A stretch of 51,759 nucleotides of DNA from Escherichia phage vB_EcoD_Fulano1. How positions within the stretch are numbered: the first letter of the stretch is position 1; the number at the start of each line of letters is the position of its first letter. The notes beneath the pieces are model-generated. The model made no database searches. It was given only the letters and a program-made list of their open reading frames with translations, and had not been told where the DNA came from. Made by a program: the position numbers and the translations under genes. Shown here piece by piece: positions 33,525 to 51,758 of this stretch. The stretch is taken from the sequence record OL539459.1; one strand, given 5' to 3'.

Positions 33525-33622
33525 GGATTATTATCATGTGGCGTTTGTTACTTTTGCCCTTACCTGTTATGATGGCGATCTCTATTGTATATGTTGTCAT
33601 AATGAGATAAGGAGAATTTTTG

Positions 33623-34753
33623 ATGAAGCAAATCAAAATCACAGATGAACAATTTATCAATGAGCGCAAGCAGGGAAAGACATATAAGCAGATCGCTAAT
33701 GAATATGGCATGAACGTTCGCAGCATTGAGCGCCGCGCGGCACGATTAGCAAAGCAAGGTAAAGTTACAACCATCGGATCACCTGGTTTTGGTGTTACTG
33801 GAGAATCAAAGCTAATTGATAAAGATGGCAATGTGGTTATGACATGGATTAAGACAAGTAAGGACCGCGAACAGTTAGAAGCATTAATGCAGGCCGCTAT
33901 GGATGCATTTAGCGAAGAAGTTCCTCGACTTGATCCACAGCCAGAATCACAAAAGGATTATAGCGAGACGTTATCACTGTATCCGATCTTTGACATGCAC
34001 TTGGGCGCAATGGCGCATAAGCATGAATGCGGCGAGAATTGGGATACAGCAACAGCAGAGCGCGTAATGAATAATTTCATTGATTATTCCATCCAGTGCG
34101 CACCTGATAGTGAGAATGCTGTTTTGCTGATTGGCGGTGATATGCTTCACAGTGACGGACTGGAAGCGGTAACACCTGCAAGCGGTCACGTATTGGATCA
34201 AGATAGTCGATACGCAAAGCTTGTTTATGTTGCCATCCGGTCAGTGCGTCGAGCAATTACAAAGCTGTTATCAAAACACAAAAACGTCGAGATTCAGATC
34301 ATTGAAGGCAACCACGACCAAAGCGGCATGATCTGGTTGCGCGCAGCAATGGCGGCAGCATATGAGAATGAGCCACGAGTGCATGTTGATGTGTCTCCGC
34401 GAGTAGTTCATCACACACAATATGGCAAAACGTTCCTGGCATACCATCACGGGCATACTATCCGCAAACCTGAAACATTGCTAATGATGTGCGCGGCAGA
34501 CTGGCGCGAAGACTTCGGCAATTCAAAAATGATGTATGCTCACGTAGGGCACTGGCATCATCAAACAGTAACTGAAACAAGCCTGGGCATTGTTGAAGTG
34601 CATAGCACTATGGCGGCAAAAGATGCATATGCTGCGCGCGGTGGATGGCGTTCTCGTCGCCGTGCGGCTGTTATTGTTTATGATAAAGAATACGGAGAAG
34701 TAGGGCGATTTATGCATTATCCAGAAATGGCCGATCGAACTTTTAATTATTAA
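33623..34753 (+). CDS. HTH domain + calcineurin-like metallophosphoesterase
   Basis: N-terminal HTH-like KTYKQIANEYGMNVRSIERRAARL; phosphoesterase motifs DMH, GGDMLHSD, GNHD, GHWHH; ATG 33623 behind AAGGAG. Confidence 0.6.
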   Translation: MKQIKITDEQFINERKQGKTYKQIANEYGMNVRSIERRAARLAKQGKVTTIGSPGFGVTGESKLIDKDGNVVMTWIKTSKDREQLEALMQAAMDAFSEEVPRLDPQPESQKDYSETLSLYPIFDMHLGAMAHKHECGENWDTATAERVMNNFIDYSIQCAPDSENAVLLIGGDMLHSDGLEAVTPASGHVLDQDSRYAKLVYVAIRSVRRAITKLLSKHKNVEIQIIEGNHDQSGMIWLRAAMAAAYENEPRVHVDVSPRVVHHTQYGKTFLAYHHGHTIRKPETLLMMCAADWREDFGNSKMMYAHVGHWHHQTVTETSLGIVEVHSTMAAKDAYAARGGWRSRRRAAVIVYDKEYGEVGRFMHYPEMADRTFNY

Positions 34754-36004: not shown

Positions 36005-36243
36005 TCGATACGCTTTACAGTAACCAACAAAACGCCGTCCTCATCACACAAATTATGCTCTGATATGTTAAACGCTCGCATGTCAGAATGAATGAGCGTT
36101 AACATTGCGTGCATGAAGTCGCCATGTGAGATTTGAGAAGTAGCGCAAAACTTAAGAATTTCATCTATCAGTTTACTTTCCATGATTTTCATGATAACCA
36201 AGTTTAGCCTCTGCTTGTTCTCTTGCCATAATTGCATCATCAA
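36001..36243 (-). CDS. hypothetical protein
   Basis: 80 aa ORF, overlaps 3' end of HNH gene. Confidence 0.3.
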   Translation of the reverse strand: MMMQLWQENKQRLNLVIMKIMESKLIDEILKFCATSQISHGDFMHAMLTLIHSDMRAFNISEHNLCDEDGVLLVTVKRIE

Positions 36244-36646
36244 TGCTTGAAAATAATCCTAAATGAATACTCTTACCTTTATCATATATGGTTGCATGCC
36301 ATTTTTTTTCTTTCTTCCTCCAGCACACTCCAACCCTACCAGATTTATTTCTTTTTAGTAGAGATACGTTTTTGCTGTTCTCTAATCTTGATGCAAGCCT
36401 TAAATTTTCAATCCTGTTATCCAACCTATTGTGCCATATATGATCTATCTCCATTCCTTCTGGTATTTTTCCATTGTGCATTTCCCATATTATCCTATGC
36501 GCCAAAAGCAATACACCATTATACCTTATTCTTACATAGCCATTTTTATCTACACATCCAGCAACGCTTCCTGGCTTTGCTTTTCCCCTTCTGTTTCTCC
36601 ATCTCAATATTCCATTGTCATATATAAATATTTTATTCCAATCCAT
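36173..36646 (-). CDS. HNH homing endonuclease (HNH + AP2-like domain), copy 1
   Basis: motifs HRIIWEMHNG, IDHIWHNRLDNRIENLRL and AP2-like C-terminal segment. Confidence 0.75.
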   Translation of the reverse strand: MDWNKIFIYDNGILRWRNRRGKAKPGSVAGCVDKNGYVRIRYNGVLLLAHRIIWEMHNGKIPEGMEIDHIWHNRLDNRIENLRLASRLENSKNVSLLKRNKSGRVGVCWRKKEKKWHATIYDKGKSIHLGLFSSIDDAIMAREQAEAKLGYHENHGK

Positions 36647-37028: not shown

Positions 37029-37502
37029 TTATCCCCCGTGATTTTTGTGATAGCCAAGTTTTTCTTCTGCTAGTTTTCTTGCGTCTATAGCGTCACTTAT
37101 ATCTAAAAATCTCCCAAGATGTTTTATTCCATTATCTGTCTTTATCTGCGCCTTCCACTTGCCAGAGTAATTATCAAAGTAAACGCCAGTTACACCAGAT
37201 CTATTATTTTTTGATCTTGATTTGTTTTTACTATTCTCCTTGCATGTTACAAGCCTCAAGTTTTCTATCCTGTTATCGGTTCTTATGTGATTTATGTGAT
37301 CTATCTGCATTCCATCAGGAATATCTCCGTTAAACATTTCCCAAACTATCCTATGCACTCTCCTGAATCTATATCCTACATTAACCTGCAAGTATCCATC
37401 AGGTAGCATCCTACCAGCAGGCTCTCCAGCCTTGACGCGACCATAACTACGCTTCCAACGAAGTATTCCATTGTCATAATCAAAAACATCATGCCAATTC
37501 AT
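37029..37502 (-). CDS. HNH homing endonuclease, copy 2
   Basis: paralog of copy 1: NGILRW, HRIVWEMFNG, IDHINH...DNRIENLRL. Confidence 0.75.
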   Translation of the reverse strand: MNWHDVFDYDNGILRWKRSYGRVKAGEPAGRMLPDGYLQVNVGYRFRRVHRIVWEMFNGDIPDGMQIDHINHIRTDNRIENLRLVTCKENSKNKSRSKNNRSGVTGVYFDNYSGKWKAQIKTDNGIKHLGRFLDISDAIDARKLAEEKLGYHKNHGG

Positions 37503-37506
37503 AAAG

Positions 37507-39090
37507 TTACCCCAGCAATGTTGGATTTACGAAAACAACGCCATTAATCACACAAATATAATTTCTTTCTTCAAGCATCGGCAGCAGTTGCGTTTCCATA
37601 CGCTTCATTACGCCAGCCTGACCAACAAACGGCTTAACTTTTCGTGCAGCCTCATATATGGCGCGCACATTCAAGATCCCCTTGTTAGCCTTACCGTGTC
37701 GAGTGATAATCTCGATTAGTTTACCCATTTCAGCATCATCACCAGCATAGCCAGAAGCGTTTGCGGCGCTAATGTATGTTTTGCTCAACTCGCTAAACAT
37801 CAGTAGTGCTTCCTGAACGGTTTCAACCTCAATCTCTTTCGACTTTTGAGGGTATCCGCCAGGATTAAACCAATTGCGGATAGTGTGCAAAACCGAAGCA
37901 ATTCTGATCACCTGCTTATCCATTTTGCCAAGCGCGCCGCGCAGCATTGTATGAGAATACTTTCCGCCATCGGCAAGGTGCGGTTCCATCTCCTGACGAG
38001 CCATGTTAAGCACTCGCATTGCTGATTTGCTGATCTTAAGCTGGATGTTTGATTCGCTCATTATGTTATGGATCAGCTTAAAATATTGGCTTTTCAGTTC
38101 TCCATCAACAGGCTCATAAGTCGAATCACCGTTATCATCAACAAACTTTCGACGACCTAAAAATGATTCCTCACGCACAAGCAAATAACGCTCACTTACA
38201 CCGATACCGCGTGATCCTGCGTCCATGATGGCATTGATTGTTTCATCCTGGGCAATTACCGCCATGCAGCCAAGAGCTTTAAAACTCATATTGTTGTCAG
38301 CGTTTGCACGAGCTATAGAAACATGACCATGATCCCATGCTTTTAGCACAAGTTCGCTGTTTGTTTTGCGTTCGCTATTGGCATATGTCAGGCCTAAAAG
38401 GCTGTTAATACTCGTTGCCTCGTCTGAAATTACAGCAAAGTTACCCTGGCGATTGTTGATTCTTGCAAGTCCTTCAGGCGTGGTGTCTGAAACAGGGAAA
38501 ACAATGTCACACATCTTTTCCAGCTTTTCTTCAAGATCTTCTTTCTCCTGGTATAGCGATTCCATATCAGCGCCAGATCGCTCGCTTTTCATCTCTTTTG
38601 CAAGACCTGCCAACTTTGCCTGAATCTTTTTTCGTTCCTTCTTTCGCTGATCATTAATTCTTTCTACCTCAGCAACCATAGGAGCAAGTGCCAGGCTGTT
38701 AACGGCAGATTTACCAGTTGAAGGAGGCTGACTTGTAACAACGTAAAGAGCAGTTGGTTGATCCGTTCCGTGATACTCAACCGTGAAGCGTCCAAGCATT
38801 GCAGCAGACACGCAGCCGATAAAATGCATATATGCCGATGATTCAGGGAACTGAACTGATCGAGCAATGTTGCGCGCCAACTTACCAACAACATCAACAT
38901 CATTGCCAAGAGAAATTATAGGGTAGCGATCGTTTCCGTTATTAACATCATTAACCTCACCCCAAAAGCTGGACGATTGACGGTATCCGTTTGCCTGAAT
39001 GGACACGCGCACCGGAGATAATCCTTGTGCATCAGCTAATTCGATAATTTGTTTTGGTGTTAGTTTATTGGTTTCAAACGAAAAATTCAT
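37507..39090 (-). CDS. P-loop NTPase (putative replication/helicase-like ATPase)
   Basis: 527 aa; Walker A PPSTGKS, Walker B-like VISDEATS; function not resolved. Confidence 0.4.
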   Translation of the reverse strand: MNFSFETNKLTPKQIIELADAQGLSPVRVSIQANGYRQSSSFWGEVNDVNNGNDRYPIISLGNDVDVVGKLARNIARSVQFPESSAYMHFIGCVSAAMLGRFTVEYHGTDQPTALYVVTSQPPSTGKSAVNSLALAPMVAEVERINDQRKKERKKIQAKLAGLAKEMKSERSGADMESLYQEKEDLEEKLEKMCDIVFPVSDTTPEGLARINNRQGNFAVISDEATSINSLLGLTYANSERKTNSELVLKAWDHGHVSIARANADNNMSFKALGCMAVIAQDETINAIMDAGSRGIGVSERYLLVREESFLGRRKFVDDNGDSTYEPVDGELKSQYFKLIHNIMSESNIQLKISKSAMRVLNMARQEMEPHLADGGKYSHTMLRGALGKMDKQVIRIASVLHTIRNWFNPGGYPQKSKEIEVETVQEALLMFSELSKTYISAANASGYAGDDAEMGKLIEIITRHGKANKGILNVRAIYEAARKVKPFVGQAGVMKRMETQLLPMLEERNYICVINGVVFVNPTLLG

Positions 39091-39143: not shown

Positions 39144-39162
39144 ATTTAACAAAAAATGCTAT
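39144..39162 (-). promoter_or_regulatory. recurrent element ATAGCATTTTTTGTTAAAT
   Basis: overlaps stop TAG of HNH copy 3; hairpin with TATTAT loop; then RBS AAAAGGAG and ATG 39090. Confidence 0.45.
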
Positions 39163-39659
39163 ACGCCATGATTCTTGTGAAATGAGAAATCTTTCTGAGC
39201 TGTTTTTCTGGCAGTTTCTGCTTCATGTATCGACTCATACCGCCCTAAACTTACGTTTTTACCATTAATTTGAATTTGTGCCCTCCACTTTCCAGTTTGT
39301 TTGCAGAATGTAACTCCAGTCACCCCGCTTGAATTATTTATCTGAACAGACTTGTTCATATTGTTTTCAAGCCTTGTTACCAGCCTTAGATTTTCAATCC
39401 TGTTGTCTGCGCGATTGTGGTTAATGTGATCAACCTCCATGTTTGGCGGAATGTCTCCATTGTGCATAATCCAAACAATTCTATGCGCCAGGTATTTCCT
39501 GCCAAAAATACCAATAGAAATATACCCATTACCTTTTTCGCAGCCAGCTATGAAACCTATTTTATTCTTCTTTCCTGTATTGACCCTCCATATCAAATAT
39601 CCATCTTTGTATTCAAACAGCCTCAAAAGTATTTCGCTTGAAATTTTGCAGTTGCACAT
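39159..39659 (-). CDS. HNH homing endonuclease, copy 3
   Basis: HRIVWIMHNG, VDHINHNRADNRIENLRL, AP2-like tail; RBS GGAGGG. Confidence 0.75.
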   Translation of the reverse strand: MCNCKISSEILLRLFEYKDGYLIWRVNTGKKNKIGFIAGCEKGNGYISIGIFGRKYLAHRIVWIMHNGDIPPNMEVDHINHNRADNRIENLRLVTRLENNMNKSVQINNSSGVTGVTFCKQTGKWRAQIQINGKNVSLGRYESIHEAETARKTAQKDFSFHKNHGV

Positions 39660-44744: not shown

Positions 44745-45638
44745 ATGTTAAAACTTGCTGACATTAAATTCCCGATCACTTTCGAATCTCGTGGCGTTGG
44801 TCATTACATTTTTACAGATGAGAAAACATGCCATAACGTTTGGTTGCACAGCGATAAGCCAAGCCCATCAAAAATGGAGATTCAGCACTTCATTGATGCG
44901 CATAATCAGCACTACAACTCAATCCGTGACTACGGCTACGCAATGCCAGGCTACACATGCTTGCACTACAAGCCATATAAGGGCCAGGTGTTACCAGTGC
45001 GCTCACCGGAACGCGCAGAGATTCCGATGGTCAATATGAAAACCTGCGACTACAAAAAGCTGTGGTGCTTAAGTCTGGACAATATCAAGTATCCGATCAC
45101 GTTCCACACGACTGGTAAGTCAACGATTCGCTACACATCGCGCGACAATGGCGTTTATAGCGATGGTACGAAATCAGAGTTGAAAGTTGATTTCTTTGTC
45201 AACGGTCACAACAAATTCAATCCGCACAACGAAGAGGATAAAGTGTACTACGTGGAAGATATTACAAAACACTTGTTTGGCGAAACTCCATTCGGCGGCG
45301 GGAAGACGTCAATTCAAAAAATCATTGGCGAGGAGATCCACAAGGCAGCCGCTGAAATGAAAGCACCAGGAGGCTGGCGTATTGATAAGAGCGCAATTTC
45401 CTATCAAGAAATCGTAACGCAGGGCGCTATTGAAGACATGCCAGTTGCCGCCACGCTAAAAGGCGTTCAGCTTGATGACGGCGTGTGGTATGAATTAACG
45501 GCTAAGCCAAAGACGATCGAGATTCATGATGATGTTGTTATTCTTCTGCTTCATTACGGTAGCGCAAAAAACCGTGCCGTTGCGGGTGAGATTAGCATCA
45601 AGCGCGGAACGATGGTTAAGTGGAAGGTTAAGGTGTAA
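44745..45638 (+). CDS. hypothetical protein with internal tandem duplication
   Basis: 297 aa; LADIKFPITFESRG and LDNIKYPITFHTTG repeat units. Confidence 0.45.
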   Translation: MLKLADIKFPITFESRGVGHYIFTDEKTCHNVWLHSDKPSPSKMEIQHFIDAHNQHYNSIRDYGYAMPGYTCLHYKPYKGQVLPVRSPERAEIPMVNMKTCDYKKLWCLSLDNIKYPITFHTTGKSTIRYTSRDNGVYSDGTKSELKVDFFVNGHNKFNPHNEEDKVYYVEDITKHLFGETPFGGGKTSIQKIIGEEIHKAAAEMKAPGGWRIDKSAISYQEIVTQGAIEDMPVAATLKGVQLDDGVWYELTAKPKTIEIHDDVVILLLHYGSAKNRAVAGEISIKRGTMVKWKVKV

Positions 45639-46152: not shown

Positions 46153-46362
46153 ATGGATCAGAACAAAACAGCAAAATATAAATTCACTGACGACTACGGA
46201 GACACTATCGACGTTTATCAGCGTGGGAATCAGATCTTTATCGATGGCACTTTCGAATATGGCCGGATGCCAGACTTTCGGGGAATACTTTCGGCAGATA
46301 GCGCGCGACGCATGGCGAACGTGTTAAATAAACTGGCGGCAAAGATTGAGGCGATGCAATGA
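46153..46362 (+). CDS. hypothetical protein
   Basis: 69 aa ORF. Confidence 0.4.
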   Translation: MDQNKTAKYKFTDDYGDTIDVYQRGNQIFIDGTFEYGRMPDFRGILSADSARRMANVLNKLAAKIEAMQ

Positions 46363-46898
46363 AAAAATACACTTTCGAACTATGGGGCAATAAGTACGAA
46401 TTTACGACAAGCAAGCCTATTGTTGTGTGCGATCTCGACGGCACGCTATCGGACGGATCGCATCGTTTGCATTTGCTGCCAAATGAAAACTTGCACCTTA
46501 CGGAATCGTGGCGCGAGTTTAACAGGGCCGCCGCCGGAGATTCACCGATTAAAAGCACTATCGCGGTTATTAACGGTTTATGGGTGTCGGGATTTGCCAT
46601 CGTCATCTTGACCGGACGCAGCGACGAGGTTCGCTATGAAACCTGCAAATGGTTGAATGAGAACGGCGTGAAGTTTGACGAAATCATCATGCGCCGCCAG
46701 GAGGACAACCGAAAGGATACTGTTATTAAAGAAGAAGCCTTGCGCGCTATTGGCCTGGACAATATTGTTTGCGCCTTTGACGATTCGCCGAGCGTGGTTA
46801 AGCACTTCCGCAGCTTGGGGATCACAACCTATCAGGTCACGGAATACGACAAGCCACACGCTCACATACAATCTCACGGCGTGGATGAATTGAAATGA
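46359..46898 (+). CDS. HAD-family phosphatase (polynucleotide 3'-phosphatase-like)
   Basis: motif I VVCDLDGTL, motif II ILTGRS, motif IV FDDSPS. Confidence 0.6.
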   Translation: MKKYTFELWGNKYEFTTSKPIVVCDLDGTLSDGSHRLHLLPNENLHLTESWREFNRAAAGDSPIKSTIAVINGLWVSGFAIVILTGRSDEVRYETCKWLNENGVKFDEIIMRRQEDNRKDTVIKEEALRAIGLDNIVCAFDDSPSVVKHFRSLGITTYQVTEYDKPHAHIQSHGVDELK

Positions 46899-47056
46899 CC
46901 TGGTTACTTTTAATCTTTGTCACAAGTTACAATTCCGCCGCTATTGAATCGCAAGAGTTCCACGGCGAATCAAGATGCCAGGAAGCACGAAAACAAGTTG
47001 TTCTCCACATGTCAGATAGTGGGAAAGATGTAACAGCGCTATGCGTTCGTAAATAG
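46895..47056 (+). CDS. hypothetical small protein
   Basis: 53 aa ORF not in track, ATGA overlap with phosphatase stop, hydrophobic N-terminus. Confidence 0.25.
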   Translation: MTWLLLIFVTSYNSAAIESQEFHGESRCQEARKQVVLHMSDSGKDVTALCVRK

Positions 47057-47072
47057 CACTTTTTGCAAAAAC
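47053..47072 (+). promoter_or_regulatory. recurrent element ATAGCACTTTTTGCAAAAAC
   Basis: overlaps stop TAG of small ORF; TATAGT 47091-47096 in hairpin loop. Confidence 0.4.
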
Positions 47073-47127
47073 ACATTATCGGGCTTGCGGTATAGTAAGC
47101 CCATCGACAACAAGCGAGGATTAAATC

Positions 47128-47391
47128 ATGGTTAATAAAGTTGAGTTTTTCAAAGCGGTAGACAAGATTGACGGCGCGCCAAGTTTCTTTGCTATCCATT
47201 CCATTGACGGCGAAGACGTTGCATACAACGTGATTAGTCGAGACGGTATATCAAAACTTAGTGACCTGGTGGGTTATATTGTGGCAAACGGGAAATGTGC
47301 ATGGCCCGATTCGCCACGAGAGCCGCGCCGCCGCGACATGCAAAATCCAGTCCTGCTTTACACGCTGGTAATTGAAGGAGTCAACAAATGA
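47128..47391 (+). CDS. hypothetical protein
   Basis: 87 aa ORF behind recurrent element. Confidence 0.35.
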   Translation: MVNKVEFFKAVDKIDGAPSFFAIHSIDGEDVAYNVISRDGISKLSDLVGYIVANGKCAWPDSPREPRRRDMQNPVLLYTLVIEGVNK

Positions 47392-47588
47392 TTTGGTTAC
47401 TTGTATTTTTGGTGGTTTTCTTTTATATTTCAGGCTTATTCATCTTCCGTGCGCTGGTGAAAACATGCGATTGCACGGATAAAGATCAGCCTCTTGTTCT
47501 GATGTTCTGGTTTGTGTGGTTTTGGGTTGTGTGGTTTTGGGTTGCGCTTTATCAGATTGTACGGGATAAAAGCGGATTCAAGTGGTGA
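47388..47588 (+). CDS. small membrane protein (Trp/Phe-rich)
   Basis: 66 aa, two hydrophobic segments, FWFVWFWVVWFWV from DNA direct repeat 47508-47540. Confidence 0.4.
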   Translation: MIWLLVFLVVFFYISGLFIFRALVKTCDCTDKDQPLVLMFWFVWFWVVWFWVALYQIVRDKSGFKW

Positions 47589-47782
47589 TTCTTACTATAG
47601 CGCATTCACGCAGTGCGCTATGTTGAGATAACAACATGAGATCATGAAGATGCGAAACTTCGAAAAAATCGTATCCAAAAAGAAGCGATACAGCTACCAC
47701 GAGCACCAAGAGATGAATCAACGCTATCGCAATAAGCGCCAGCGCAAAGGTAAACATTCCGGTAAACATGGAGAAAATCAAT

Positions 47783-48373
47783 ATGAAACGAGACATTATC
47801 ATCCTTAACGGACCGCCAGGAGTTGGCAAAGATACGCTTGCCGCATACTTAACGGGCCATCGTTACGCAGCGGTTAAAGCGTCGTTTAAACAGCCGATGT
47901 TTGATATTGCATTCTCCATGCTTGGCGTTTACAGATATGACGAGTTCATTGATCTGTATAACGACCGCGAGCAGAAAGAAAAGCCTCAAGCAATCTTGCA
48001 AGGCAAGTCTCCGCGACAATTCATGATTTGGATTAGTGAAGAAGTCATGAAGCCAGCTTTTGGCGAGCAATATTTTGGGAATCGCATGGTTGAGCAGGTA
48101 CACGAGATGTACAGAGATTTAGCTGTTGTAATTAGTGATGGAGGATTCCCTGAAGAAATCAAGCCGCTCGTTAAGGCAGGCCATGAAGTTCACATTTGCC
48201 GACTGCATCGCGAAGGATTCACGTTTGATGGCGATTCGCGAAACTATATTGACCTGAGCGGATACCATTACCGAGTCAAGCATTACGACTTCACAATGAC
48301 TGATGGCGAGCCAGAAAAGACTGTTGATGAGATCATCAAAACGGTGCAGTGGAAACACACAAAGATTAAATAG
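47783..48373 (+). CDS. P-loop kinase (nucleotide/polynucleotide kinase-like)
   Basis: Walker A ILNGPPGVGKDT; ORF track 47768 trimmed to ATG 47783 behind GGAG. Confidence 0.55.
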   Translation: MKRDIIILNGPPGVGKDTLAAYLTGHRYAAVKASFKQPMFDIAFSMLGVYRYDEFIDLYNDREQKEKPQAILQGKSPRQFMIWISEEVMKPAFGEQYFGNRMVEQVHEMYRDLAVVISDGGFPEEIKPLVKAGHEVHICRLHREGFTFDGDSRNYIDLSGYHYRVKHYDFTMTDGEPEKTVDEIIKTVQWKHTKIK

Positions 48374-51728: not shown

Positions 51729-51735
51729 ACAACTA

Positions 51736-51758
51736 CCCGCCAAATGGCGGGTTTTTTA
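51736..51758 (+). terminator. intrinsic terminator
   Basis: stem CCCGCC/GGCGGG, loop AAAT, then T6. Confidence 0.75.

What the first reader, a model, noticed from the sequence alone, without database searches (positions are those of the whole stretch)
46359..48373. Separate HAD phosphatase and P-loop kinase genes (split Pnk-like pair) with no recognisable ligase
46359..46898 has HAD motifs DLDGTL, TGRS and FDDSPS like the T4 polynucleotide kinase 3'-phosphatase domain. 47783..48373 has a Walker-A kinase fold. They are separated by two small genes. In T4 the fused kinase-phosphatase works with RNA ligase to repair cleaved tRNA. No ligase (KxDG) motif was seen here, so the pair may act with host ligase, on DNA nicks, or the kinase may be a dNMP kinase.
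Basis: partly seen in the sequence, partly recalled or inferred. Interest (0 to 1): 0.45.

Follow-up and report, generated by a model that had tools for sequence, protein, structure and literature searches.

The report
T1-like phage phosphatase and dNMP kinase
The two genes are real, but they are the ordinary stand-alone PNKP-type phosphatase and the deoxynucleotide (dNMP) kinase found in most T1-like coliphages, not a split RNA-repair kinase-phosphatase; the kinase's 97%-identical orthologue has been shown experimentally to trigger the Kongming defence system.

Summary
The window is a complete ~51.8 kb genome of a Hanrivervirus-like T1-type coliphage (Drexlerviridae).

**Other checks.** No ligase is encoded anywhere in the genome. 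The two genes are separated by four small ORFs, not two.

**The pairing is still not accidental.**
- In other T1-like lineages the two genes lie 39-111 nt apart, next to a metallophosphoesterase "exonuclease".
- Two divergent natural HAD-DNK fusion proteins exist in metagenomes.

**Most likely function.** The pair forms a DNA-end and nucleotide-pool salvage module. The kinase step is shown by experiments on homologues. The phosphatase substrate (3'-phosphate versus 5'-dNMP) is inferred and untested.

**Verdict.** The genes are already known and annotated, so interest is low to moderate.

The parts
46359..46898 (+). Stand-alone PNKP-clade HAD (DxDxT) phosphomonoesterase, 179 aa. Relatives annotate it as 'polynucleotide kinase' or 'kinase-phosphatase', although it has no kinase domain.
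46895..47056 (+). Small ORF, 53 aa, with a hydrophobic N-terminus. Its start overlaps the HAD stop in ATGA.
   Evidence: phrog_5579 E 3e-9. Annotated in JK16 and KarlJaspers.
47128..47391 (+). Small ORF, 87 aa, function unknown.
   Evidence: phrog_25318 E 3e-6. Annotated in relatives.
47388..47588 (+). Small Cys-containing hydrophobic (probably membrane) ORF, 66 aa.
   Evidence: phrog_9755 E 2.6e-24. One relative annotates a gene in this stretch as 'FeoB-associated Cys-rich membrane protein'.
47594..47624 (+). Conserved stem-loop between the membrane ORF and the basic ORF. It may be an RNA processing, attenuation or regulatory element upstream of the kinase.
   Evidence: Inverted repeat found. 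The alignment with KarlJaspers and JK16 shows one compensatory A-T to G-C change. No T-run follows, so it is not a canonical intrinsic terminator.
47644..47808 (+). Small, very basic ORF, 54 aa, overlapping the kinase start.
   Evidence: phrog_8176 E 1.7e-5. Annotated in KarlJaspers as bas06_0075. Conserved in JK16, with many nucleotide differences.
47783..48373 (+). dNMP kinase (DNK), 196 aa, of the T4 gp1 / T5 Dnk / Rao1 R1DNK family.
33620..34753 (+). HTH plus metallophosphoesterase 'DNA repair exonuclease'. It is the recurrent genomic neighbour of HAD(-DNK) in other lineages, and here lies 12 kb away.
   Evidence: phrog_704 E 5.7e-151. Adjacent to HAD-DNK in Rao1 (gp56-57-58), in 26 of 80 viral loci, and next to the HAD-DNK fusion gene in L005 at 43% identity.

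Best explanation
These are two separate enzymes of the early gene block of a T1-like phage. Together they serve DNA-end and nucleotide-pool processing during host-DNA recycling, not RNA repair.

(1) The P-loop protein is a broad-specificity dNMP kinase (DNK). It uses ATP to convert the 5'-dNMPs that accumulate during infection into dNDPs, and host Ndk turns these into dNTPs for phage replication. This same activity is what the Kongming defence system exploits to make its dITP alarm signal. This step is shown by experiments on a 97%-identical orthologue (in vivo trigger) and a 46%-identical homologue (in vitro kinase assay).

(2) The HAD protein is a Mg2+-dependent DxDxT acyl-phosphatase of the PNKP clade with a complete active site. 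My committed reading is that it removes 3'-phosphate monoesters, from 3'-phosphorylated DNA ends and from 3'-dNMP or 3',5'-bisphosphate nucleotides. That would let nucleases (notably the phage metallophosphoesterase 'exonuclease') and polymerases use those ends, and would feed 5'-dNMPs to DNK. This step is inferred from homology and gene linkage only.

The kinase is not a polynucleotide 5'-kinase, and the phage encodes no ligase.
For: Kinase:
- phrog_139 'dNMP kinase' E 1.4e-51.
- hhalign against T4 gp1 covers 73 columns at E 2e-5, against only the 27-column P-loop for T4 Pnk.
- 190/196 residues identical to KarlJaspers QXV82329.1, listed as the DNK construct that triggered Kongming toxicity.
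- Purified R1DNK (46% identical) phosphorylates dAMP, dGMP, dCMP and dTMP. Deleting it from Rao1 lowers dATP.

HAD:
- Pfam HAD_PNKP hit above the cut-off.
- hhalign 98.8% to the T4 Pnk phosphatase.
- Across 40 diverse homologues, the equivalents of T4 D165, R176, D187, R246, K258 and D278 are invariant. D167, S211 (as T/S), R213 and D277 (as D/E) are conserved in at least 95%. The catalytic roles of D165, D167, S211, K258 and D278 are taken from PMC3592404.
- The T4 Pnk phosphatase also works on 3'-dTMP mononucleotide.

Linkage:
- HAD and DNK are 39-111 nt apart, directly after the phrog_704 metallophosphoesterase, in 20 viral loci and in Rao1. They are 760-1640 nt apart in the window-type lineage.
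- Two divergent HAD-DNK fusion proteins exist (P0253, 403 aa, on 3 contigs from 2 samples; P0261, 461 aa), plus one deletion chimera.
- PMC13164509 independently notes the PNK/dNMP-kinase pair after the exonuclease gene and suggests a role in nucleotide supply.
- Neighbours of distant stand-alone homologues are DNA and nucleotide-metabolism genes: Metallophos, ThyX/ThyA, dUTPase, RNase_T and DNA ligase. No RNA ligase or AAA_33 kinase appears among the 25 most frequent families.

Against a Dmp-like 5'-dAMP phosphatase: Rao1 carries the 56%-identical HAD (gp57) yet is Kongming-sensitive, and T5 Dmp supplied in trans rescues it.
Against: - No member of this stand-alone HAD clade has been assayed, so 3'- versus 5'-phosphate specificity is unproven.
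- The family also shows detectable similarity to T5 Dmp, a 5'-dNMP phosphatase. hhalign gives 83%, E 9e-6 over 133 columns, including the HR, TxR, K and DD positions. The 'PNKP-specific' residues therefore do not discriminate the two substrates.
- One relative is fused to a MazZ-like dATP/dGTP diphosphohydrolase domain (P0259). That makes most metabolic sense if the HAD takes 5'-dNMPs.
- About ten T1-like loci have the HAD without a DNK within 10 kb, so the two are not obligate partners.
- The T4 R279 equivalent is not conserved: Ser in the window protein, Arg in only 7 of 40 homologues. From my recollection of Zhu et al. 2007, R279 is one of two arginines proposed to hold the penultimate phosphodiester of a polynucleotide.
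- The AF2 model of the HAD cap region (aa 29-62) is low-confidence, so the substrate pocket cannot be read from the model.
- Rao1 dnk deletion had no fitness cost in the laboratory, so salvage is dispensable there.
Confidence: 0.6

Rival explanations
1. The HAD protein is a Dmp-like 5'-deoxynucleotidase, and it forms a substrate cycle or sanitation pair with DNK. DNK pushes usable dNMPs on to dNDPs. The HAD dephosphorylates surplus or non-canonical dNMPs released from the degraded host chromosome (for example dIMP, dUMP, m6-dAMP). This balances the pools and possibly blunts defences that sense dNMP-derived signals, such as Kongming and PUA-Cal-HAD.
For: - hhalign similarity of the HAD family to T5 Dmp over 133 columns, including the subfamily-specific positions.
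- T5 carries Dmp together with DNK. The Kongming study found Dmp homologues mostly in DNK-encoding phages, and Dmp acts as an anti-Kongming factor.
- Natural fusions exist between this HAD and DNK, and between this HAD and a MazZ-like dNTP diphosphohydrolase.
- The next-best structural matches after Pnk include class C acid phosphatases and a plant storage protein of that fold; that these acid phosphatases act as nucleotidases is my own knowledge.
- Defences that sense dNMPs from host-DNA breakdown do exist.
Against: - The family is much closer to the T4 Pnk 3'-phosphatase (E 1e-16) than to T5 Dmp (E 9e-6). BLASTP against Dmp matches only motif I.
- Rao1 has the orthologue (gp57) yet is fully Kongming-sensitive, and needs T5 Dmp in trans for rescue.
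- A 5'-nucleotidase fused to a dNMP kinase would be a futile cycle unless the two specificities differ.
Confidence: 0.25
2. The two proteins are a split Pnkp: the HAD heals 3'-phosphate or 2',3'-cyclic phosphate ends, the P-loop kinase phosphorylates 5'-OH ends, and a host ligase seals cleaved tRNA or nicked DNA to counter anticodon nucleases or other nucleases.
For: - The HAD is a bona fide PNKP-type phosphatase.
- The kinase and phosphatase genes are linked, and even fused in some phages, echoing the Pnkp architecture.
- No one has tested R1DNK-type kinases on polynucleotide 5'-OH ends.
Against: - The kinase belongs to the dNMP-kinase family by PHROG, by fold and by experiments on homologues.
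- It lacks any AAA_33/Pnk-kinase signature beyond the P-loop.
- No RNA or DNA ligase is encoded in the genome.
- From my own knowledge, the host RNA ligase RtcB joins 3'-P/2',3'>P ends to 5'-OH ends directly, so a 3'-phosphatase would work against it rather than with it.
- True Pnk-type fusions in this HAD clade use an AAA_33 kinase, not a DNK.
Confidence: 0.05
3. The two genes are functionally unrelated neighbours. The HAD acts on a non-nucleotide phosphoester (sugar phosphate, lipid or protein phosphate), and its proximity to DNK is only inherited synteny.
For: - HAD enzymes are notoriously diverse in substrate.
- Some T1-like phages keep the HAD without a DNK.
Against: - The linkage survives relocation of the genes to a different genome region.
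- Two divergent in-frame fusions with DNK, sharing a conserved linker, point to a fusion kept by selection.
- Neighbours elsewhere are DNA and nucleotide enzymes.
- The residues invariant across the family match those of the T4 Pnk phosphatase, including R176, D187 and R246.
Confidence: 0.1

Closest known systems
T4 polynucleotide kinase-phosphatase (PseT/Pnkp), C-terminal 3'-phosphatase domain (PDB 1ltq, 5uj0), and Capnocytophaga Pnkp1 (4xrp)
   Same: - Same HAD/DxDxT fold, with about 28% identity over about 118 aligned residues.
- Pfam HAD_PNKP membership.
- Nucleophile Asp, acid-base Asp, motif II Thr/Ser followed two residues later by Arg, the Lys, and the DD metal ligands are all present.
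   Different: - No fused or separately encoded Pnk-type (AAA_33) 5'-kinase, and no RNA ligase or Hen1 partner.
- It carries a roughly 15-residue insertion in the cap (HLLP...W..FN, with an invariant Trp), an N-terminal beta-hairpin and a conserved C-terminal tail (..SHGV..), none of which aligns with T4 Pnk.
- The T4 R279 equivalent is not conserved.
Phage dNMP kinases (DNK): Rao1 R1DNK and KarlJaspers DNK (Kongming triggers), T5 Dnk, T4 gp1 (PDB 1dek)
   Same: - 97% identical to the KarlJaspers DNK and 46% identical to R1DNK.
- GKDT P-loop, with the Lys equivalent to R1DNK K15.
- Same family motifs: SFKxPMF, DRxxKE, RxFMIWISE, DGGF, RLHR, GDSRxY.
   Different: - Only remote sequence similarity to T4 gp1: 17% identity, hhalign E 2e-5 over the N-terminal 73 columns.
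- About 45 residues shorter than gp1.
- The substrate range of this exact protein has not been measured.
T5 deoxynucleoside-5'-monophosphatase (Dmp), an anti-Kongming factor
   Same: - It is a HAD enzyme encoded by a phage that also encodes a DNK.
- The profile alignment covers 133 columns, including DLDGT, HR, N.AC..D, T.R, K and DD.
   Different: - Similarity is weak (83% probability). BLASTP detects only motif I, and Dmp has no Pfam match.
- Dmp is 244 aa and is a pre-early gene in the first-step-transfer DNA.
- The T1-like orthologue in Rao1 does not protect against Kongming.
EXO-PNK-dNMP kinase cluster of Drexlerviridae, described for KanT1/T1 (PMC13164509) and present in Rao1 (gp56-gp57-gp58)
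   Same: The same three gene families. HAD is 56% and DNK 46% identical to the Rao1 proteins. The order is also the same: HAD upstream of DNK on one strand.
   Different: In this window (Tempevirinae type) the HAD and DNK genes have moved to the early block upstream of the terminase genes. They are separated by four small ORFs and a conserved hairpin, and lie 12 kb from the exonuclease gene.

Membership tests
HAD_PNKP (PF25109): PNKP-type DxDxT phosphatase domain | Profile match above the curated gathering score, over the full domain length | tested here: met
   74.5 bits against a 27.6 cut-off, profile positions 3-140 of 143. hhalign against T4 Pnk residues 155-301: 98.8%, E 1e-16.
HAD_PNKP (PF25109): PNKP-type DxDxT phosphatase domain | Catalytic set: DxDxT nucleophile and acid-base Asp, motif II Ser/Thr, motif III Lys, motif IV DD (T4 D165, D167, S211, K258, D277/D278) | tested here: met
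   The window residues are D25, D27, T85, K124 and D141/D142 (alignment). They are conserved in 39-40 of 40 diverse homologues, allowing T/S at motif II and D/E at D277. Roles are taken from PMC3592404.
HAD_PNKP (PF25109): PNKP-type DxDxT phosphatase domain | Subfamily-specific architectural and substrate residues (T4 R176, D187, R213, D254, R246, R279; recalled from Zhu et al. 2007, not re-read here) | tested here: inconclusive
   R36, D61 and R112 (T4 R176, D187, R246) are 40/40. R87 (R213) is 38/40 and D120 (D254) is 28/40. The R279 equivalent is Ser here and Arg in only 7/40.
HAD_PNKP (PF25109): PNKP-type DxDxT phosphatase domain | Fold closest to solved PNKP phosphatases | tested here: met
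HAD_PNKP (PF25109): PNKP-type DxDxT phosphatase domain | 3'-phosphatase activity on polynucleotides or 3'-NMPs | not testable with these tools
   This needs an enzyme assay. I found no published assay of a T1-like stand-alone member.
Bifunctional Pnkp end-healing system (T4 PseT type, with ligase) | A Pnk-type P-loop 5'-OH polynucleotide kinase domain (Pfam AAA_33 class), fused or encoded alongside | tested here: not met
Bifunctional Pnkp end-healing system (T4 PseT type, with ligase) | A partner RNA or DNA ligase (nucleotidyltransferase) in the genome | tested here: not met
   No ligase family in the ORFs scanned with Pfam or PHROGs. T4 RnlA tblastn best E 0.13. None among the 89 CDS of KarlJaspers.
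Phage dNMP kinase (DNK; phrog_139; T4 gp1 / T5 Dnk / R1DNK) | Family profile match | tested here: met
   phrog_139 E 1.4e-51, covering residues 4-194.
Phage dNMP kinase (DNK; phrog_139; T4 gp1 / T5 Dnk / R1DNK) | NMP-kinase fold closest to T4 gp1 | tested here: met
Phage dNMP kinase (DNK; phrog_139; T4 gp1 / T5 Dnk / R1DNK) | Intact Walker A with the catalytic Lys (R1DNK K15) in a GKDT context | tested here: met
   G15, K16, D17 and T18 are invariant in 31 homologues. The K15A mutation abolishes R1DNK function.
Phage dNMP kinase (DNK; phrog_139; T4 gp1 / T5 Dnk / R1DNK) | Close sequence relationship to an experimentally characterised DNK | tested here: met
   190/196 residues identical to QXV82329.1, which triggers Kongming toxicity. 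46% identical to R1DNK, which has in vitro dNMP kinase activity.
Phage dNMP kinase (DNK; phrog_139; T4 gp1 / T5 Dnk / R1DNK) | ATP-dependent dNMP to dNDP activity of this exact protein | not testable with these tools
   This needs an enzyme assay.
T5 Dmp-type 5'-deoxynucleotidase | Sequence membership in the Dmp family | tested here: inconclusive
   hhalign 83% probability, E 9e-6 over 133 columns. BLASTP matches only motif I, E 0.014. Dmp has no Pfam model to test against.
T5 Dmp-type 5'-deoxynucleotidase | Protects a DNK-encoding phage from Kongming | not testable with these tools
   Indirect evidence only. Rao1 carries the orthologue and is still sensitive, while T5 Dmp in trans rescues it.

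The most novel reading that the evidence does not exclude
The PNKP-like HAD and the DNK form a single functional unit, as the natural HAD-DNK fusions suggest. This unit processes the flood of nucleotides released when the phage destroys the host chromosome. DNK captures canonical dNMPs. The HAD removes phosphates from species DNK cannot use: 3'-phosphorylated nucleotides, or non-canonical and methylated dNMPs such as dIMP or m6-dAMP. On this reading the module would be a salvage device that also hides dNMP-derived danger signals from defences such as Kongming or PUA-Cal-HAD. That would be a nucleotide-level counter-defence distinct from T5 Dmp.
Probability: 0.12. Interest if true: 0.6.

Novelty: already known. 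Interest (0 to 1): 0.25.

Why it matters
The main value is corrective.

- Dozens of T1-like genomes label the HAD gene 'polynucleotide kinase' or 'kinase-phosphatase'. It has no kinase domain, and the nearby kinase is a dNMP kinase. Inferring a tRNA-repair or anti-anticodon-nuclease function from these labels would be wrong.
- The kinase predicts a phenotype. This phage should be sensed by Kongming-carrying hosts, because its DNK is 97% identical to a proven trigger.
- One open point is worth an experiment. The substrate of the very abundant stand-alone PNKP-like phosphatases is unknown (8,838 cluster representatives match at E <= 1e-3). So is the reason they are repeatedly linked, and twice fused, to DNK and placed next to a metallophosphoesterase nuclease.

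Tried and rejected
- **Ligase search.** Pfam on the 20 non-structural ORFs of 140 aa or more, PHROGs on nine of them (including all without a Pfam match), tblastn with T4 RnlA, and the full annotation of the closest relative all found nothing.
- **PDB sequence search with the kinase.** Only P-loop noise, E > 0.2. The fold search was needed to identify the family.
- **NCBIfam on both proteins.** Nothing reached the cut-offs.
- **Anti-Kongming Dmp idea for the HAD.** Considered, then down-weighted, because Rao1 has the orthologue yet is sensitive. The per-phage sensitivities of the BASEL Drexlerviridae are only in a figure (fig. S3), so I could not read them.
- **C-terminal add-ons of relatives' HAD proteins.** I checked whether the 57-aa domain and the Zn-ribbon-like insert are encoded elsewhere in the window. 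They are not.
- **Zhu et al. 2007 (Virology 366:126).** I tried to re-read it for the residue roles, but it is not held. Those roles are therefore cited from memory, and from PMC3592404 where possible.
- **Promoter and terminator scan of 42.5-51.8 kb.** Fewer promoter-like sites than in shuffled sequence, and no informative terminator within the HAD-DNK stretch.
- **Literature search for an assayed T1-like 'PNK'.** Only genome-description papers repeating the annotation.
Full report
**What the window is.** The 51,759-bp window is collinear with complete genomes of T1-like coliphages of the family Drexlerviridae, subfamily Tempevirinae. It is about 93% identical over about 80% of the tested 25 kb to the BASEL phages KarlJaspers (Bas06) and JakobBernoulli. 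Like KarlJaspers, it starts with the terminase genes. The finding lies in a + strand block of mostly small genes that runs from about 43.9 kb to the right end, just upstream of the terminase genes on the permuted map.

**Checking the observation.** Both ORFs are real.
- ORF 46359..46898 encodes 179 aa containing DLDGTL, TGRS and FDDSPS exactly as described.
- It matches Pfam PF25109 (HAD_PNKP) at E 1.2e-20, 74.5 bits against a cut-off of 27.6, over the whole domain. It matches phrog_415 at E 7.5e-66.
- The kinase ORF can start at 47768 or 47783.
- The statement that two small genes separate the pair is inexact. Three conserved small ORFs lie between them (53, 87 and 66 aa). A fourth, very basic 54-aa ORF is conserved at protein level in relatives and overlaps the kinase start. 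A conserved hairpin with one compensatory change also lies between them.
- The absence of a ligase is confirmed by Pfam scans of all 20 non-structural ORFs of 140 aa or more and PHROG scans of nine of them (including all without a Pfam match), by tblastn with T4 RnlA, and by the annotation of all 89 KarlJaspers CDS.

**The kinase is a dNMP kinase, not a polynucleotide kinase.**
- PHROGs places it in phrog_139, 'deoxynucleoside monophosphate kinase', at E 1.4e-51.
- No Pfam family reaches its cut-off. In particular there is no AAA_33 match, which is the family that covers Pnk-type kinases.
- Profile comparison aligns 73 columns with T4 gp1 (E 2e-5), but only the 27-column P-loop stretch with T4 Pnk.
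- The literature is decisive. The Kongming study (bioRxiv 10.1101/2024.12.20.629578) co-expressed the 'DNK' of Escherichia phage KarlJaspers with KomABC and found toxicity. Its supplement identifies that protein as QXV82329.1. This is bas06_0076, and it is 190/196 identical to the window protein.
- The study's prototype trigger, Rao1 R1DNK, is 46% identical to the window protein and shares all family motifs.
- Purified R1DNK phosphorylated dAMP, dGMP and dCMP efficiently, and also dTMP. K15A, the Walker Lys (K16 here), abolished function. Deleting dnk lowered dATP in infected cells.

**The HAD protein is a true PNKP-clade phosphatase, and stand-alone is the normal state.**
- Sequence searches of the PDB find only Pnkp1 (4xrp) and T4 Pnk (1ltq, 5uj0).
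- The family profile aligns to T4 Pnk residues 155-301 at 98.8% probability, E 1e-16.
- From the HMMER alignment, T4 residues map to window residues as follows: D165/D167/T169 to D25/D27/T29, R176 to R36, D187 to D61, S211 to T85, R213 to R87, R246 to R112, D254 to D120, K258 to K124, and D277/D278 to D141/D142.
- Across 40 diverse stand-alone homologues, the equivalents of D165, R176, D187, R246, K258 and D278 are invariant. The equivalents of D167, S211 (as T/S), R213 and D277 (as D/E) are conserved in at least 95%. D254 is 28/40, and R279 is Arg in only 7/40.
- The catalytic roles of D165, D167, S211, K258 and D278 are stated in PMC3592404. The roles of R176, D187, R213, D254, R246 and R279 come from my recollection of Zhu et al. 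2007, which I could not re-read.
- An exhaustive HMMER search of 1.84 billion cluster representatives returned 8,838 matches at E <= 1e-3.
- Of the best 150, 137 are single-domain proteins of 230 aa or less. Five have the T4 order (AAA_33 kinase then HAD). Two have HAD then AAA_33.
- A PNKP-like phosphatase without a kinase is therefore commonplace and does not by itself imply a missing partner.

**The pairing with DNK is nevertheless non-random.** Rao1, a 44-kb T1-like phage, encodes gp56 (phrog_704-type exonuclease), gp57 ('polynucleotide kinase', a HAD 56% identical to the window protein) and gp58 (R1DNK) in a row, with 50 nt between gp57 and gp58. I then examined 80 viral contigs retrieved with the HAD profile.
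- Twenty T1-like loci have exonuclease-HAD-DNK with a 39-111 nt gap between HAD and DNK.
- Eight window-type loci have HAD and DNK 760-1640 nt apart on the same strand.
- About ten T1-like loci have the HAD without a DNK within 10 kb, in five cases still next to the exonuclease gene.
- All distant homologues (below 46% identity) lack a DNK nearby.

Among the 150 best representatives, two are in-frame HAD-DNK fusions. P0253 (403 aa) is seen on three contigs from two samples, one of them a 60.7-kb phage-like contig. P0261 is 461 aa. DNK-profile E-values are 3e-65 and 1e-58, and the two share a conserved linker. P0273 is a HAD/DNK deletion chimera. In the 60.7-kb contig the fusion gene is followed by a 43%-identical homologue of the window's exonuclease gene. 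A recent paper on KanT1 independently reports that 'PNK' and dNMP kinase genes commonly follow the DNA repair exonuclease in Drexlerviridae, and suggests they enhance nucleotide supply (PMC13164509).

**What the HAD most likely does.** Two readings compete.

For a 3'-phosphatase:
- The clear best homology is to the two characterised 3'-phosphatases, and the active site is complete.
- T4 Pnkp is also active on 3'-dTMP mononucleotide.
- It repeatedly sits next to a metallophosphoesterase nuclease: Metallophos is among the most frequent neighbour families of distant homologues, alongside thymidylate synthases, dUTPase, RNase_T and ATP-dependent DNA ligase. No RNA ligase appears among the 25 most frequent families.
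- Rao1 carries the orthologue yet is Kongming-sensitive and is rescued by T5 Dmp in trans. An efficient 5'-dAMP phosphatase should have protected it.

For a Dmp-like 5'-nucleotidase:
- The HAD profile aligns with T5 Dmp over 133 columns at 83% probability, E 9e-6. The alignment includes the positions I had taken as PNKP-specific, so those residues do not settle 3' versus 5'.
- One relative (P0259) is fused to a MazZ-like dATP/dGTP diphosphohydrolase domain.
- T5 shows that Dmp and DNK can coexist usefully.

I commit to the 3'-phosphatase and salvage reading. The model runs as follows:
1. Host DNA is broken down.
2. The HAD unblocks 3'-phosphorylated ends or nucleotides.
3. Nucleases release 5'-dNMPs.
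4. DNK makes dNDPs.
5. Host Ndk makes dNTPs.

Only the DNK step rests on experiment. The HAD and exonuclease steps are inference. By analogy only, a mycobacteriophage metallophosphoesterase has been shown to disrupt host genomic DNA (PMC12287305). Defences that sense dNMPs from host-DNA breakdown also exist.

**Why the RNA-repair model is unlikely.**
- There is no Pnk-type kinase and no ligase.
- From my own knowledge, the host RNA ligase RtcB uses 3'-P or 2',3'>P ends directly, so a lone 3'-phosphatase would not help it.
- The genomic company of this HAD clade is DNA and nucleotide metabolism.

I leave about 5% for this model, because no one has tested DNK-family kinases on polynucleotide 5'-OH ends, and the kinase-phosphatase fusions echo Pnkp architecture.

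**Novelty and score.**
- Both genes are annotated in many GenBank relatives as 'polynucleotide kinase' or 'putative kinase-phosphatase', and as 'dNMP kinase', 'ATP-binding protein' or 'P-loop NTPase'.
- The kinase's near-identical orthologue has been tested experimentally, and the gene pairing has been remarked on in print. I therefore file this as already known.
- What this analysis adds is modest: the correction that the 'PNK' has no kinase domain, the HAD-DNK fusion proteins, the persistence of the linkage across a genome rearrangement, and the unexpected profile similarity to T5 Dmp.
- These make the untested substrate of the HAD a reasonable small experimental question, with a possible link to nucleotide-sensing defences. 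Interest 0.25.

Noticed in passing
window 47594-47624: There is a conserved stem-loop (TATAGCGCA-ttcacgcag-TGCGCTATG) between the 66-aa membrane ORF and the small basic ORF upstream of the kinase. JK16 shows a compensatory A-T to G-C change. No T-run follows, so it is not a canonical terminator, and it may be an RNA processing or regulatory element. In Rao1, Kongming escape mutations also map to the dnk promoter region.
   Followed up: partly
window 47644-47808: A very basic 54-aa ORF (MKMRNFEKIVSKKKRYSY...) overlaps the kinase start by 26 nt. It is conserved at protein level in KarlJaspers, where it is annotated as bas06_0075, and in JK16, where it is not annotated. It gives a weak phrog_8176 hit.
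   Followed up: partly
P0121, P0126, P0131, P0151, P0240 (orthologues of window 46359..46898): Close orthologues of the HAD protein carry extra C-terminal modules. One is a 57-aa domain (IKITKRARFVGSKDSLVN...). The other is a CxxC...CxxC zinc-ribbon-like insert. The window protein stops before these modules, and neither is encoded elsewhere in the window.
   Followed up: partly
window 33620-34753: The phrog_704 'DNA repair exonuclease' has an N-terminal HTH region followed by metallophosphoesterase-like motifs (DMH, GDMLH, GNHD, HHGH, GHWHH), but gives no Pfam hit at E < 0.001. It is the most constant genomic neighbour of the HAD gene in other T1-like lineages and in an unrelated 60-kb phage contig (L005).
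   Followed up: partly
P0259 (267 aa, metagenomic representative): A HAD_PNKP domain 51% identical to the window protein is fused to a PF18909 dATP/dGTP diphosphohydrolase (MazZ-like) N-terminal domain. The fusion hints that some members of this clade act on mononucleotides.
   Followed up: no
window 36173-36646, 37029-37502, 39159-39659 (all - strand): Three HNH_3 homing-endonuclease-like genes, two of them with an AP2 domain, flank the DUF3987 helicase gene (37507..39090). KarlJaspers lacks these insertions in the corresponding stretch.
   Followed up: no
window 44745-45638: This 297-aa protein of unknown function matches phrog_7116 in two stretches. It has an evident internal duplication (LADIKFPITFESRG... 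and LDNIKYPITFHTTG...).
   Followed up: no
window 46359-46898, aa 161-179 and aa 37-55: The HAD clade has a conserved C-terminal tail (..QSHGV..) and a cap insertion with an invariant Trp (W51) that has no counterpart in the alignment with T4 Pnk. AlphaFold is not confident in either region. They may be partner- or substrate-binding elements.
   Followed up: no
window 51735-51752: A strong terminator-like hairpin (ACCCGCC-AAAT-GGCGGGT followed by TTTTTAT) sits at the extreme right end of the window, just before the terminase genes on the permuted map.
   Followed up: no
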